A stretch of DNA of 64,000 nucleotides from Eledone cirrhosa (taxonomy: Eukaryota). Shown here piece after piece: positions 1,502 to 63,596 of this stretch (position 1 is the first letter of the stretch; each line of letters starts with the position of its first letter). Below the pieces are notes generated by a model. That model had not been told where the DNA came from and did not search any database. It saw nothing but the letters and a program-made list of their open reading frames with translations. The stretch covers positions 274,350,001 through 274,414,000 of the forward strand of contig OZ024743.1 of assembly GCA_964016885.1 (NCBI GenBank), given 5' to 3'. Made by a program: the position numbers and the translations under genes.

Positions 1502-1678
1502 AATATAGAAATGGCTTCTACAGGACAAGAGCTGTTTCATTCGAAGGAAATCTTCAGAGCTTTCTTGATGATTTCTTTCGAATGAAACAGTTCTAGTCCT
1601 GTAGAAGCCATTTCTATATTAATAGTTATACTCTGCTATGTACTTACTGTTGTTACCCCCGATTGAACCCGGGATATA
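1502..1678. mobile_element. Fold-back mini-element (about 52-bp arms, 1502-1620, plus about 58-bp tail) with degenerate hammerhead core boxes
   Basis: aatatagaaatggcttctacaggac is the reverse complement of gtcctgtagaagccatttctatatt; each arm carries (C/T)TGAnGA-hairpin-GAAAC...GTC. Confidence 0.7.
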
Positions 1679-2754
1679 CATATATATATATTTATTAAAA
1701 TAACAGATTAAAGTTTAAGCAAAGAATCGCTGCTTTCACCCTTAACGGGATCTTCATATATATATATATGTATGTATCAGGCCAATCAGTCACTTTATAT
1801 TTTAGAAAATATCATATATCTTTACTAGCTCTGACAGTTGGCAGGTGAACAGTGAACTGCACTGATTAAGGTTAATACCCAGAAACATTAGTGTCTGCAG
1901 TTCTGTTTACATGCCAACACATGACCGAGAATGGGGGGCTCATTCTACTGACATGGCTTTAAAAACGAGGTGGTTTGCATAATTGCAAACGAATCGAATA
2001 TGATTATTAATATTCGAAAAACTCATTACATTTGTGTGTGTGTGTGTGTGTGTGTGTGTGTGTGTGTGTGTGTGTGTGTGTGTGTGTGTGTGTGTGTGTG
2101 TGTGTGTGTGAAATCAAATCCTGATTTTATTTTCCACGCATCCATTGAAAATTTTGATAATTTTCTGTTGTACAGACGATTTGACGGTGTGAATCCAAAT
2201 TGTAAAAGCTAAGCTGATTTTGCGATAACTCAATAAATTATTCTTACAAAGTCAATATGAATTCTCATTTTTAATTCAAGGAAACAATTAAAACATGTAA
2301 TTATATATATTAAGAAATCAATTTATTCATCTGAGATTGTTTATGTGAAACTGCTTGTGCATGCGTTAATATCCAAGCATGAGTCTGAAATTCGATTGAC
2401 TTCTGTGTCTAGGAATATAATATGGCCTTTGGCTTTAAACAATGAATGGGATATGAATTCTTTGTTTCCTTCTTTTCGCATAAGCTTTTATATCACCCCG
2501 ATGTATTTAAGAGAATTTATTGAATAATTTACCCCTCGATAACCCTAAAGTAATTGATGGAAATGTCTGCTCAAACTGAAATTAGCAGCAAATCATCGGG
2601 TATAGATTATTATAATAAAAGCTGCATGACATCATTTGCACTAATTTTTGTTTCTCATATGAGAATTTATCTATAATATATACTGATTTATTCAATCTAG
2701 TATTCTCACTTTTGTCGGTAGAGCTGTTGTTTACAGCTTTTTGTGTTTTATTAT

Positions 2755-2942
2755 ATGGTGGATTGGCAGTATCAGTAGAGGGTCGGACACCATGCTTTCC
2801 AGCATAGTTACGTCCCTTTATGATCTGAGTTCAAATCCCGCCGAGGTTGACTTTGCCTTTCATCCTTACGGGGTCGATAAAATAAAGTACCAGTAATGCA
2901 CTGGGTAATTGCTGGCCTTGTGCCTAAAGTAGAAACAATTAT
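2755..2942 (+). mobile_element. tRNA-head SINE, family A (full copy)
   Basis: A-box-like TGGCAGTATCAGTAG, B-box GAGTTCAAATCC, core GCCTTTCATCCTTACGGGGTCGATAAAATAAAGTACCAGT; more than 10 related copies in the window. Confidence 0.88.
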
Positions 2943-3482
2943 ATATTGTAATAGCTGTTTATTTTGCTTGTTTGTTTAAGCCCAGATCGTTACTGATTTA
3001 GAGTAGTTATCAAAGAAATTATTTCAGACATATATCTTGAATCACATTATCTACTATAGCACCCACCTTGTAAGTCAGTAAAATAAGATTTAAGGACAAT
3101 TTTACAGTAATTTCTAGTATGTCGAGCAACTAAATAAAACCCTGTATTGTTGGCTTGATAAAATCAAGTTGTGTTGTTAACTTCGTTTGAGAGATAGGAT
3201 CGGGTCTGAAATGATGTAATTAAACAGTTCATTATCTTTCTATTTCTCGTATTTAGTAATGATATCGGAATGTCGAGCCGAAGGCATTATTAAAACCAGA
3301 GATATAGACTCTTCTTATTCTGTTGTCTGTGCGTGAGATATAGTTTTAACCAACGTGCTAGCGGCATCATAAATACGGGAATACCCAATACTTGAAAGTC
3401 CCGCGCATGAACAAGAGAAAACGACCAACACAGTTCTTGTATCACCACGTTTTCAATCGAATACTTTTTTTGTATTTTTCAG

Positions 3483-3534
3483 TATCGTGGGTGTGGAATA
3501 TGTACCTCTATCTTATCTCCATCTTGAAGAATTG
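3483..3534 (+). CDS. BAIAP3: BAIAP3/Munc13-4-family gene, internal coding exon A (xIVGVEYVPLSYLHLEEL)
   Basis: Acceptor tttttttgtatttttcAG, donor GTAAGT; 52 bp, phase 2 in and phase 0 out; joins in frame to exon B. Peptide fits the family pattern preceding MHD1 from memory of homologs. Confidence 0.7.
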
Positions 3535-59800: not shown

Positions 59801-60189
59801 AAACCCCACGGCAATAAATCATTGTTATAGTCTTTTACGACGATGGATTCGCAGAATCATTAGTGTGTCGGACAAAATGCCTGCCGATATTAGCTCCAGT
59901 ACATTATATTCAATTTCGATTCCTCCGAGGTCTAATTTGATATGCATGTATAAGTATATATTGAACCTCTTCCCTCGGAATCACTGCTCTGCAAACTTTG
60001 CATATGAAACTTTTTTACAAAATTCACCACACATTGTAAATAGATTGAGCATAGTTTTCTTTGACCTTTTTATCTACAGATATCCTGCATACACATATGT
60101 CTCCTAGCGTGGATTTTTGTGGCAAAGTCTGTCATACCCCAGTAAGACAAACTGGCATAGTAGCTAGAACAGTTGAGCAATTTTCTGAC

Positions 60190-62300
60190 TTAAGGATTAA
60201 TTTCTACATATTAACATAATTGATATATTCGAGATAGACTACTCCGCCAAGAGCATACTTACTTTTACTCCAAAATGCTACTAGAGAATGTGGAGGACGT
60301 AGCACGATTTAACGGAGATATAGCAACTACCACCACCATGTCAACCATGTACCCACTCAAAATTAAATATTTAGCGGTCTTCAAAGCGGACGTCTTAGAT
60401 GTAATCGCTAACATCAAGTTCCGTAAGTATCATAGTTAAGAGATATTGAGAAATTTAGATCGGCAAATATTATTTTTGTTTTCTCTGACAAAACAAAGAA
60501 CTTATATGAAGCAAATAGAAATAGATATGATCAACTTATGTTAAGCTATATAACAAGTAAGTACCAGAAGGCCAAACCTGACACAATTTTATTAGCAATG
60601 AAGCCATAGAACTAGCTAGAAGCTTTAACATTGACAATAGACAAGAAAGGTTTGCTAAGCGTGATGCATTTATTACCCTGAAGAATCACAAATTGGATTT
60701 TAAGAACAAGCCATCCTGCATCCTCATAAACCCAGCAATAATAGAATTATGGCATGCCAGTTAGAAGATCTTAGGAGAAATCAACACATGCATTATAAAC
60801 AACATAAACCTGTTACTCTGGAACAATACATCAGGTATATTCTGGTTCAAAGATATCCCATCTAAGAATAGAGCTACATTCCCCCAAAATTGATATAACC
60901 AATTTCTACCACTCTATTACTAAACCTCTACTAGATAAGACATTAGACTTCACTCCTATCTTCGAACCAAGAACTTGACCTGATTTACCGCACACGAAGA
61001 ACACTTCTATTCAACAACGTCACCGCTTCGGTTAAACATTCCGACCTGGAATATCCATTCGACGTCTCGGTGGGATCATACGATAACGCCGATATATGTA
61101 ATCTTATTGGATCATACATACACCACACGTTTGAGCGTAAATTGCTCACCACACCATCGGTCTCTACCACTGCTGTGGTTTTTCTTTAGCCCAGGATTGC
61201 AGCGGGCACACTCTGGACAGATTCCGTAAAGATCTGATAGACACCTTTAGCACCCTAAGAATTAAGATTACAGTCAACACGAACCTCTCTAGCGCAGACG
61301 TTTTTTACATCAACCCGGACCTATGAACAGGAACACATACACTCTATCATAAACCGAATGAAAGGCTAAAATATATCAATAAAGGATCCTGCCACCTACC
61401 TAAGGTTTTTAAAGGCCGTAGAATCTCGAACTTATCGTCTTATAGAGAAATATTTGAGAAAGAAGCGCCGTACTGTAACTAGGGTCTCCGAGATAGTGGA
61501 TCCAGGGAACAGATGAAATACATGCCTAATAGAACCCCACCTAGAAATAAAAATAGAAAAAGAAAAATAATCTGGTTCGTGTCTCCTTTCTCATATAATA
61601 TAATGATTAATGTAGGTAAGACATTGTTACACTCTAATAAGCATTTCACACCACAACAAAGATACAGTAGAATATTCAATCGACGTTCTGACTGCAAAAG
61701 AAAACAGATGAGGATCCGGGATGTTTTTGCAGGAAAGAGACGACTGTCCATTACAACAACACTGTAATGTAAAATCCATAATATACGATACAGAGATCAA
61801 ATATTAAACAGCATCAAGCCAGAGAAAAATATGTAGTTATAGTCCAGGAGCGATTTAAGGAAAGGTTCTACTTGAACCTCTCCTATTTGGAAACCACAGT
61901 AGCGCTGACAAAAAGGGTCTAGCAACTAAACGAAAACGAAGTACGACATGACATTACAAGGAAAGTGCTCGAAAAATTCACACCGTACACAAGCGAAAAG
62001 AAGAGATACCCTCAACAGGAAATGTTGGACCTTGTAGGATTTATGCTCACCGGATACATATCTAAACTCTAAAATGGAGGTCTTTAGACATTGTTTGCAA
62101 CAGAAGGCCCACATTTTATCCAACTGGAAGCTCACACTGCAAGATACCCTATCACAGGACCTGCTAAATCCCCCGAGATAATATTCCTTTCTGCTACCTA
62201 TCCACGCAAAAAAACATTCGAAAACATCACATTCACACTAGATAAGTCTGTTGAATGTCACATTGCAGCCTAATGATTACACATGCAATCAACTTTTTAG
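60190..62300 (+). mobile_element. Heavily decayed near full-length Penelope-like element (RT plus GIY-YIG)
   Basis: DAFITLKNHK...PSCILINPA (about 60663), PFDVSVGSYDNADICNLIG (about 61055), RKRKIIWFVSPFS (ORF 61513), CFCRK...CPLQQHCNVKSIIY; same broad clade as the 8024 and 24 kb fragments; degenerate hammerhead downstream at about 62681. Confidence 0.85.
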
Positions 62301-63470
62301 ATAATCAGAGCTTAAGTGTTGAGGAATTATTAGAGGAGGCTTAAATATTTTCAATATCTTGTCTTAATTATTTTAAGCGTTTGAAATATTGCTGACAAGC
62401 CAGATTGCAAACAGCCAATTACAACCCCAAACGTTGCCTCACTTGATTCACCCAAAGTAAATACTTCGTCATCTCCTTTAGTAACGAACTCATTCAAGGG
62501 GTTAAGGTTTTTAGATAATTAGCACGCAACTCGTATCACACGCATACTACACACAGATAAATTAAAGCCGAGAGTTCAAATACTCTGGAATTACCTCCTT
62601 TATTTCCGAAATGAAACTCTCCTCTATCTAAAACTGAATATAGTCGGCTAAAGGAGATTCCTCTTTCATATATTTCTTCAACGCCTGGTGAAGGCCAGTT
62701 TAGAAGAATCCCCTACACTAAACAGTGTTGGCCATAACTGGACCCCGAAGCCAAGTTTGTGCATACATTTTAAGTGAGTGGAAATTTGTTTAGACTATAT
62801 ATATATATATATATATATATATATCTACCATTTAAAATTTAGTTTGCTGTGTTCTTGTATTAATAATATCTTAACTGTTTTCAAACTAACATCTATATGC
62901 AAATTAATATTATCCATATGTGAAGCTACTTTTAAACAAGAGATCTAAATGGGTTTTGTTAGTTCTATATTCGCACAAAAGTGGTGAGAAGTTGGTTTCA
63001 ATCCACAATGAAACTATATTTTTTTAACATATTAGTAATGCTTTTAAAGGGTATTCAAATCTTTTAATTCCATGCTGAGTATGCTAGAAATTTTAAAATT
63101 CCATGCTGTTTACGACAGATTCGTATAATGGTTGCCAAAATAACTATAATAAGGAAATTAGGTGTGTATTGTCTGATATAAGAAATATTCAAATATATTG
63201 CTAGTAGGTAGTTTATTCAGCAACGCGATAGCCAATATATATATATATATATATATATATATATATATATATATATATATATATATATATGTTTATATAT
63301 ATATATATATATATTTATATATATATATATATAAATGTTTATATATATATATATATTTATATATATATATATATATTTATATATATATATATATGTTTAT
63401 ATATATATATATATATTTATATATATATATATATATATGTTTATATATATATATATATATATATATATAT

Positions 63471-63596
63471 TTCGTTTCTGAATTTGTTTAGCAAGATTCT
63501 TTATCTGAAATCGTGTGTTGAAACCGATATTGTTATACTTTGGGAGGGTCATGTTGCCAATATTGGCAACATGACCCTCCCAAAGTATAACAATAT
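63471..63596 (-). mobile_element. 126-bp fold-back mini-insertion of the 35860-40052 PLE terminus, with perfect 70-bp palindrome (63527-63596)
   Basis: 63471-63561 is the reverse complement of about 39960-40050; palindrome centred on ccaatattgg; (TA)n on both sides. Confidence 0.93.

What the first reader, a model, noticed from the sequence alone, without database searches (positions are those of the whole stretch)
1502..63596. Asymmetric hairpin-plus-tail insertions in (TA)n with family-fixed short-arm ends
Seen: at least five sequence-unrelated families share one architecture of (TA)n, short arm, fold-back, long arm, 55-90 bp unpaired tail, (TA)n (1502, 10855, 11295, 19962, 31725, 35860, 63471). 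Within a family the short arm stops at the same base regardless of insert size. It ends at ...aagtataacaatat in both the 4.2-kb and the 126-bp copy, and at tata-ggaaaa in both family H copies. Known: Penelope-like elements have inverted pLTRs and a short tail. Inference: a stereotyped integration route (TPRT, snap-back second-strand synthesis, resolution at a fixed AT-rich site near the element end) that mass-produces hairpins across several PLE families.
Basis: partly seen in the sequence, partly recalled or inferred. Interest (0 to 1): 0.85.

Follow-up and report, generated by a model that had tools for sequence, protein, structure and literature searches.

The report
Twin-primed Penelope hairpins in (TA)n
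These (TA)n-flanked hairpins with a one-sided tail are real insertions, mostly of Penelope-like retrotransposons, and because the tail-less arm is the longer one as often as the shorter, they likely form when both cut DNA strands each start reverse transcription at one of two fixed sites on the same RNA.

Summary
All seven sites are inverted repeats between TA tracts with a 56-81 nt one-sided tail, and the tail-less end is fixed per family (family A: 47 of 53 inverted insertions at one base; 15,292 such ends against 15,618 tails genome-wide). Families A, B, H and a sixth (G) encode GIY-YIG PLE proteins; C and D showed no ORF. The architecture (inverted truncated copy, tail, (TA)n target) is already published for PLEs. 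Head-to-head pairs are tail/tail-less 40, tail/tail 2, tail-less/tail-less 1. Both family-A ends sit on the same AATAT|CG motif, 61 nt apart, inside the ORF start. In five A-to-G hyper-edited copies both arms share sense-strand edits; three others were copied whole from a hairpin transcript. Best reading (0.58): programmed twin priming from two fixed start sites. Rival (0.25): snap-back, endonuclease cut, then central deletion.

The parts
35860..37327 (-). Family A tail-less inverted arm; outer end = site 0, joined to TA
   Evidence: 97.5% to 38526-39994
37328..38525 (.). Family A spacer: Asn-rich element pieces in both orientations plus the 5' part of the sense copy (internal deletion relative to L125)
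38220..39509 (+). RT-to-GIY-YIG ORF fragment, Neptune/Nematis-type motifs
   Evidence: motif definitions
38526..39994 (+). Family A tail-bearing arm
39797..39841 (+). Hammerhead-like core in the family A 3' repeat (read by eye)
   Evidence: no hammerhead among the 150 Rfam rows shown
39995..40054 (+). Family A tail; in tandem copies it is part of the ORF start
63471..63526 (-). Tail of the 126-bp family A insertion
63527..63596 (.). Perfect 70-bp family A hairpin; this exact junction occurs at 6 loci genome-wide
10855..10935 (-). Family B tail (81 nt)
10936..11251 (.). Family B arms (Hydra-type PLE 3' end with hammerhead-like core at about 10983-11049, minus strand)
11296..11373 (-). Family C tail (78 nt)
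11374..11598 (.). Family C arms; tail-less arm slightly the longer; no ORF found for this family
1502..1620 (.). Family D hairpin with hammerhead-like core; no ORF found
1621..1679 (+). Family D tail (59 nt)
19962..20155 (+). Family H insertion: hairpin to 20087, tail 20088-20155 (Hydra-type PLE)
31726..31930 (+). Family H insertion: hairpin to 31853, tail 31854-31930
21946..25959 (-).

Best explanation
These are Penelope-like retrotransposon insertions in which one arm ends at the tail end and the inverted arm ends at a fixed AT-rich site 56-139 nt further upstream, and they likely arise by programmed twin priming, both nicked strands of a (TA)n tract each priming reverse transcription at one of those two sites on the same sense RNA. 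Step by step: the GIY-YIG domain nicks both strands of (TA)n (inferred; both-strand cleavage and extension are shown in vitro for another PLE). One ATAT 3' end pairs at the distal site (tail end), the other at the proximal site, site 0 (both ends and their AT microhomology are shown; priming there is inferred). The two cDNAs run 5'-ward and stop independently, or together at an RNA end or structure (inferred from arm lengths). Where they overlap, the trailing RT must displace the other cDNA (inferred, untested). The two cDNA 3' ends are joined head to head and filled in (inferred). The tail is the distance between the two start sites. The finished hairpins are transcribed, A-to-G edited, and sometimes copied whole to new sites (three edited copies; ADAR as the cause is inferred).
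For: (1) Tail-less ends and tails occur about 1:1: A 15,292 vs 15,618; H 2,800 vs 2,958. (2) They are paired by type: of 43 adjacent head-to-head pairs under 4 kb on the first 35.9 Mb of C1, 40 are tail/tail-less, 2 tail/tail, 1 tail-less/tail-less (p=1.5e-9 against free choice). (3) Of 46 scored A insertions the tail-less arm is longer in 18, shorter in 17, equal in 11; lengths are uncorrelated among the 35 asymmetric ones. Tail-less-longer copies also occur in B, C, D and H. (4) Non-overlapping, L1-like cases: tail arm ends at -3, +4, +4 (L154, L161, L163), at +33 (L192), or is only 5-16 nt (L203, L201). X1 and X6 contigs show many H joints from the tail-less arm into the tail. (5) In 25 of 30 loci taken at the ORF start the 3' end directly precedes the ORF, and the sequence reads AATAT|CG at both ends, 61 nt apart. 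All six families have TA/AT microhomology at site 0. (6) Five edited inverted copies share sense A-to-G changes in both arms (27, 15, 3, 29 and 21 shared; one is tail/tail), so both arms trace to one sense RNA. (7) No age trend in asymmetry: 10 of 15 near-identical vs 18 of 24 older (p=0.72). (8) PMC11167929: another PLE extends both strands, starts RT at two internal sites that bound the tail, and is predicted to be a dimer.
Against: Symmetric junctions are in excess (11 vs 2.5 expected by permutation), which snap-back explains naturally. Solo tail copies match the longer arm in length (median 486 vs 474), as snap-back plus deletion would also predict. Shared edits fit DNA copying of one arm from the other equally well; discordance at edited sites is only weakly raised (4 of 79 vs 8 of 940, p=0.01, hand-tallied). 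Tail/tail insertions with identical edits (L321) are easier to get by snap-back. Most arms overlap by tens to thousands of nt, which needs strand displacement not shown for any PLE. In PMC11167929 the two strands showed no difference in start site, and the start sites were not homologous to the target. No empty orthologous allele was obtained. Families C and D have no ORF in hand.
Confidence: 0.58

Rival explanations
1. One reading: TPRT from the tail end, snap-back copying into a perfect palindrome, endonuclease cut at site 0, then asymmetric deletion of the palindrome centre at or soon after insertion.
For: Excess of symmetric junctions (11 of 46) and solo length equal to the longer arm. The partner arm is usually the closest relative, and edits are shared. 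Site 0 carries the same motif as the tail end. PMC8557442 suggests EN-mediated resolution for the tail. Central deletion of long palindromes is recalled knowledge.
Against: Needs deletion in about three quarters of cases with no age trend; 260-bp symmetric palindromes persist with 4-5% divergence and a 728-bp one is intact. Tail arms that stop inside the unpaired tail or at site 0. In L312 and L315 the outer 33 nt of the tail-less arm lack the edits that the tail arm has there, so that end was not copied from it. L433 implies priming from the site-0 side.
Confidence: 0.25
2. Most hairpins are copied whole from hairpin transcripts of a few source loci (a non-autonomous family); the fixed end is simply inherited.
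For: Three edited copies carry A-to-G changes along one continuous strand through both arms (L312, L315, L433). The 126-bp unit recurs at 6 exact loci.
Against: Junctions are nearly all different among the 39 simple ones printed. Six of about 15,000 is no amplification. Five edited copies had both arms rebuilt from the sense strand. Edited copies are enriched for hairpin sources by their nature.
Confidence: 0.08
3. Self-priming on an antisense transcript makes the head-to-head repeat (proposed in PMC3846280).
For: Palindromes at some junctions; explains head-to-head polarity.
Against: Edits shared by both arms are A-to-G in the element's sense in 5 of 5 such copies. The single antisense-edit search (5 matches) gave no insertion with a T-to-C excess in both arms. 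That control covers only one short region. The model does not explain the 1:1 pairing of two fixed ends.
Confidence: 0.05
4. Chimeric-read or assembly artefact.
For: Long-read fold-back chimeras exist (recalled).
Against: Diverged arms, family-fixed ends, and the same strand-switch joints in Illumina reads of three other samples.
Confidence: 0.01

Closest known systems
EN+ Penelope-like elements with inverted pLTR and tail (Adineta Pen2a_Av, PMC3846280; general scheme in PMC8557442 Fig. 2)
   Same: RT plus C-terminal GIY-YIG, partial tandems, inverted 5'-truncated copy, tail at one end that lies in the ORF start, (TA)n targets.
   Different: Tails of 56-139 nt rather than 30-40. Most copies are reduced to the two 3' ends. 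Pairing of end types and arm-length symmetry are quantified here; I did not find them in the passages read.
PAc (Anolis Poseidon) in vitro, PMC11167929
   Same: Two internal RT start sites bounding the tail; both target strands nicked and extended; AT-rich target; hammerhead cleavage not required (most arms here run through the hammerhead-like core).
   Different: There the start sites are AC-rich and not homologous to the target, and are presented as alternatives. Here both sites match (TA)n and are used one per arm in 40 of 43 pairs. The parts of the paper I read do not link the sites to inverted repeats.
LINE-1 twin priming (as described in PMC2912911)
   Same: Second DNA end anneals internally on the same RNA by microhomology, two cDNAs join, 5' part inverted.
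   Different: In L1 it affects a minority of insertions, and (recalled) the internal site varies and the arms barely overlap. Here the site is fixed, about two thirds of tail copies are inverted (53 of 79), and the arms usually overlap into a hairpin.
Hydra clade (families B, H, G) and Neptune/Nematis clade (family A), PMC8557442
   Same: Linker and zinc-finger motifs, (TA)n preference.
   Different: Assigned by motif only; no tree against reference elements.

Membership tests
EN+ PLE | RT followed by C-terminal GIY-YIG in one ORF (families A, B, H, G) | tested here: met
   A: GIY-YIG E=9.7e-5 (above cut-off) and RVT_1 E=3e-4 to 1e-3 (below cut-off); 863-aa RT-EN frame in L125. B and H: GIY-YIG only E=0.037 and 0.007 plus motifs, RT pieces by eye. 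G: motif by eye.
EN+ PLE | Same ORF for families C and D | tested here: inconclusive
   No ORF in up to 1.8 kb (C) or about 0.2 kb (D) of shared upstream sequence.
EN+ PLE | Partial tandem forming a pLTR that includes the ORF start | tested here: met
   Family A: 25 of 30 loci, ATG about 25 nt before site 0. Not obtained for the other families.
EN+ PLE | Hammerhead ribozyme in the pLTR | tested here: inconclusive
   Core motifs and flanking stems by eye in A, B, C, D, H; single-sequence folds recover only some stems. No hammerhead among the 150 of 287 Rfam rows shown.
EN+ PLE | Inverted 5'-truncated copy and one-sided tail | tested here: met
   tails longer (56-139 nt) than the published 30-40.
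EN+ PLE | Target-site duplication | not testable with these tools
   Hidden by (TA)n; no empty allele. One 36-nt flanking repeat, L138.
Neptune/Nematis clade (family A) | CX2-5CxxC linker and two cysteines between GIY and YIG | tested here: met
   CX4CX2C and CX4C in L125/L152; which of the two clades was not tested.
Hydra clade (families B, H, G) | CxCX5C linker, no CCHH pair, (TA)n target | tested here: met
Hydra clade (families B, H, G) | RWK and DKT motifs; placement in an RT tree | not tested
   N-terminal RT not obtained for these families; no reference set at hand.
L1-type twin priming | Both arms derive from one RNA | tested here: inconclusive
   Shared edits in 5 copies show one RNA of origin but not two RT passes.
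L1-type twin priming | Target-RNA microhomology at the outer end of the inverted arm | tested here: met
   six families.
L1-type twin priming | Variable internal site and non-overlapping arms (recalled) | tested here: not met
   Site fixed in 47 of 53; arms abut without overlap in only 3 of 46. It works like L1 twin priming but is not the same pattern.
L1-type twin priming | Microhomology at the inversion junction | tested here: inconclusive
   BLAST overlaps from -21 to +38, median 1, n=39; too coarse to judge.
MITE / foldback DNA transposon | Inverted repeats at both termini and amplified uniform copies | tested here: not met
   One terminus is the unpaired tail; the 126-bp junction occurs at 6 loci only.

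The most novel reading that the evidence does not exclude
Programmed twin priming is the default integration chemistry of EN+ PLEs: a protein dimer places two RT sites on two fixed AU-rich positions of one RNA and primes both from the two strands of a (TA)n tract. Tail and inverted pLTR are then one event. The hairpins it mass-produces feed back as ADAR-edited transcripts that can be retrotransposed whole from either end.
Probability: 0.42. Interest if true: 0.78.

Novelty: new variant of a known kind. Interest (0 to 1): 0.56.

Why it matters
How PLEs make their inverted repeats and tail is named as open in PMC8557442 and left unvalidated in PMC11167929. Here one genome holds about 15,000 events of one family and the same plan in two PLE clades. 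The counts exclude simple snap-back and point to an exact, testable alternative: two named sites, a (TA)n target, one site per strand. It would also make PLEs a large source of perfect hairpins, and so of edited double-stranded RNA, in this genome, and it shows fossil A-to-G edits can report which strand and which molecule was reverse-transcribed.

Tried and rejected
126-bp hairpin as its own MITE or a fold-back hot spot: the first search was biased by its query; the exact junction is at 6 loci; rejected. Rfam scan: only microsatellite-driven miRNA matches among the rows shown. PDB by sequence: no match. (TA)n made de novo by the element: one paralogous empty site already has 22 nt of TA (L289 vs L154) and only 2 of 109 insertions gave a usable paralogue; not supported, weakly tested. 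Empty allele at 31725 in other runs: not seen, and the right flank was skipped as a repeat. No RNA holder listed. Arms from two different source loci: the partner arm is usually the nearest relative; not supported. Stops at the hammerhead cut site: the histogram was swamped by short spurious hits and is discarded; only the printed H junctions are used, as a side note. The tail-less/tail-less candidates L354-L356 are separate pieces divided by long simple repeats or 7 kb. ORFs beside family C in L345/L346 belong to other nested PLEs. A second antisense-edit control was not run, so that control rests alone. Dropped rows: L180 (nested) from the 46 scored; L038/L039 counted once; L131 added; L098 and L110 gave no row; the arm lengths were entered by hand; 39 of the 46 had arms long enough for the identity and age test. 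Earlier findings of the scan: none returned.
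Full report
Setting. The window is C4:274350001-274414000 of a 3.0-Gb animal assembly. That the animal is an octopus-like cephalopod is my guess from genome size and microsatellite load; no call names it. The window is dense in (TA)n, RTE-like and PLE fragments.

Observation. All seven sites are inverted repeats between TA tracts with a one-sided tail of 56-81 nt. A further family, G (21946-25959, 139-nt tail), has the same plan. Masked-window control: 13 hairpins against 0 in each of 5 shuffles. 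Raw Illumina reads of three other samples show identical strand-switch joints, and X1 contigs run into TA at both family-A ends, so this is not a long-read artefact.

Identity. Family A has an RT plus GIY-YIG frame with Neptune/Nematis-type zinc motifs and an Asn-rich insert. In 25 of 30 loci taken at the ORF start, the 3' end plus tail directly precedes the ORF, and the tail is inside the first codons, as published for Adineta Pen2a. Families B, H and G have the CxCX5C linker without the CCHH pair that defines the Hydra clade (definition). C and D gave no ORF. Hammerhead-like cores were read by eye upstream of the tail-less end in A, B, C, D and H; Rfam listed none among the rows shown.

Fixed end. 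Exact pattern counts: 15,618 family-A tails and 15,292 tail-less ends; for H, 2,958 tail-continuing and 2,800 tail-less. In 79 family-A insertions taken in genome order by the tail (80 loci), 53 have an inverted arm: 47 end at site 0, 2 carry a second tail, 4 end elsewhere; 26 are sense-only or tandem. B, C and H behave alike; D is looser. Among 96 tails and 98 tail-less ends on the first 35.9 Mb of C1, adjacent head-to-head pairs are 40 mixed, 2 tail/tail, 1 tail-less/tail-less, and that last one is two separate pieces. In tandem copies both family-A ends read AATAT|CG, 61 nt apart. Site 0 shares TA/AT letters with the target in all six families.

Test of snap-back. If the tail-less arm were copied from the first cDNA it could hold nothing that the tail arm lacks. 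Of 46 scored insertions it is longer in 18, shorter in 17 and equal within 15 nt in 11. In L154, L161 and L163 the tail arm is the tail alone beside a tail-less arm of 0.5-1.4 kb; in L192, L201 and L203 it is part of the tail. Contigs of X1 and X6 show many such H joints. This is the geometry of L1 twin priming with a fixed internal site. Against my reading: symmetric junctions are in excess (11 vs 2.5), and solo copies match the longer arm in length. Both fit snap-back followed by central deletion, or a leading and a trailing RT on one RNA. Asymmetry does not rise with arm divergence (10 of 15 vs 18 of 24), so any deletion would have to be immediate.

Fossil edits. L141 showed dense A-to-G changes. 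Four searches (5, 5, 23 and 31 matches, most of them ordinary variants) gave eight edited inverted insertions. In five, both arms share sense-strand A-to-G changes: L323 (the same insertion as L141) 27, L332 15, L342 3, L321 29 (tail/tail), L427 21. Both arms thus trace to one sense RNA, which speaks against the antisense self-priming proposal but cannot separate two RT passes from DNA copying. In three (L312, L315, L433) the changes run along one strand through both arms, so a hairpin transcript was copied whole. L433 has the tail-less arm as the sense 3' part, implying priming from the site-0 side. In L312 and L315 the outer 33 nt of the tail-less arm lack edits present in the tail arm. ADAR as the cause is inference from established knowledge. 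The antisense control covers one region only. Whole-unit copying is minor: the 126-bp junction is at 6 loci and the 39 simple junctions printed are nearly all different.

Mechanism. Best reading: both strands of (TA)n are nicked, each 3' end primes at one of two fixed AU-rich sites on one RNA, and the cDNAs stop separately and are joined head to head. Shown: the ends, their pairing, the motif, arm lengths, shared sense edits. Inferred: priming at site 0, strand displacement, dimer, joining. Outside support: PAc extends both strands, starts at two sites that bound the tail and is modelled as a dimer.

Literature seen. PMC11167929: parts 1-2 of 4 (abstract, main text, start of methods). Passages only: PMC3846280, PMC8557442, PMC8969392, PMC2912911, PMC13282606, bioRxiv 10.1101/2024.12.14.628481 and 10.64898/2026.07.22.740005. 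The architecture is in print. Twin priming as the source of PLE inversions did not turn up in searches (one search gave two off-topic listings, not read). The library lacks most subscription papers, including the 2002-2006 Penelope papers and reviews, which may already raise it. I did not open supplements; those of PMC11167929 (Fig. S1-S2, start-site maps) and PMC8557442 may bear on novelty and clade.

Verdict. The census turns an open mechanistic question into a specific test. Novelty: new variant of a known kind; interest 0.56.

Noticed in passing
window 10460-10600, 11531-11708, 20373-20651: Flanking sequence duplicated in inverted orientation around a bare (TA)n tract (tail-to-tail), as if a nick in self-complementary (TA)n folded back and copied its flank.
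   Followed up: no
window 31339-31602 and 31931-32159; L138: A 230-260 bp stretch before the H insertion recurs directly after its tail; L138 has a 36-nt flanking repeat. Could be long target duplications from nicks in two different TA tracts.
   Followed up: partly
window 20598-20733, 14572-14849 (partial copy 15360-15524), 19344-19884, 51928-52049, 53015-53625, 47412-47630, 46964-47397: Further hairpins; 20598-20733 has the same arm-plus-64-nt-tail plan between TA tracts. Families not identified.
   Followed up: no
L396, L411, L415, L414 (family H): Tail arms stop, and one tail-less solo starts, at or within about a base of the presumed hammerhead cut site while partner arms run through it (printout).
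   Followed up: partly
L323, L332, L321, L427, L336: In copies edited on the sense strand the last 75 nt or so before site 0 and the tail are nearly free of edits, like a protein footprint over both start sites. L336 has 168 A-to-G changes in 1.1 kb.
   Followed up: partly
family A loci L031-L180: Arm ends cluster near -260 to -275; 16 of 22 solo tail copies lack TA at their 5' junction, whereas most inverted insertions have it on both sides.
   Followed up: partly
family B loci L092-L120: The tail end often runs into (CA)n while the tail-less end runs into (TA)n, suggesting insertion at compound microsatellite borders.
   Followed up: no
L125 and window 37332-37805: Asn-rich (AAC)n insert in the family A ORF, upstream of the RT; Asn-rich inserts are described for Adineta PLEs at other positions.
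   Followed up: no
window 20197-20341: Diverged family-A-like 3' fragment with several G's where family A has A; possibly an old edited copy.
   Followed up: no
L345:1907-7329; L351:4221-6186: Other PLE families: a Hydra-type element with 1.5-kb inverted arms and a long frame, and an element lacking the linker zinc finger (Poseidon-like by eye).
   Followed up: no
window 12841-13560; 32822-35783; 327-1330: DDE (mariner-like) transposase remnant and RTE-like LINE copies; the 4.2-kb PLE sits in the microsatellite right after the RTE-like 3' end.
   Followed up: no
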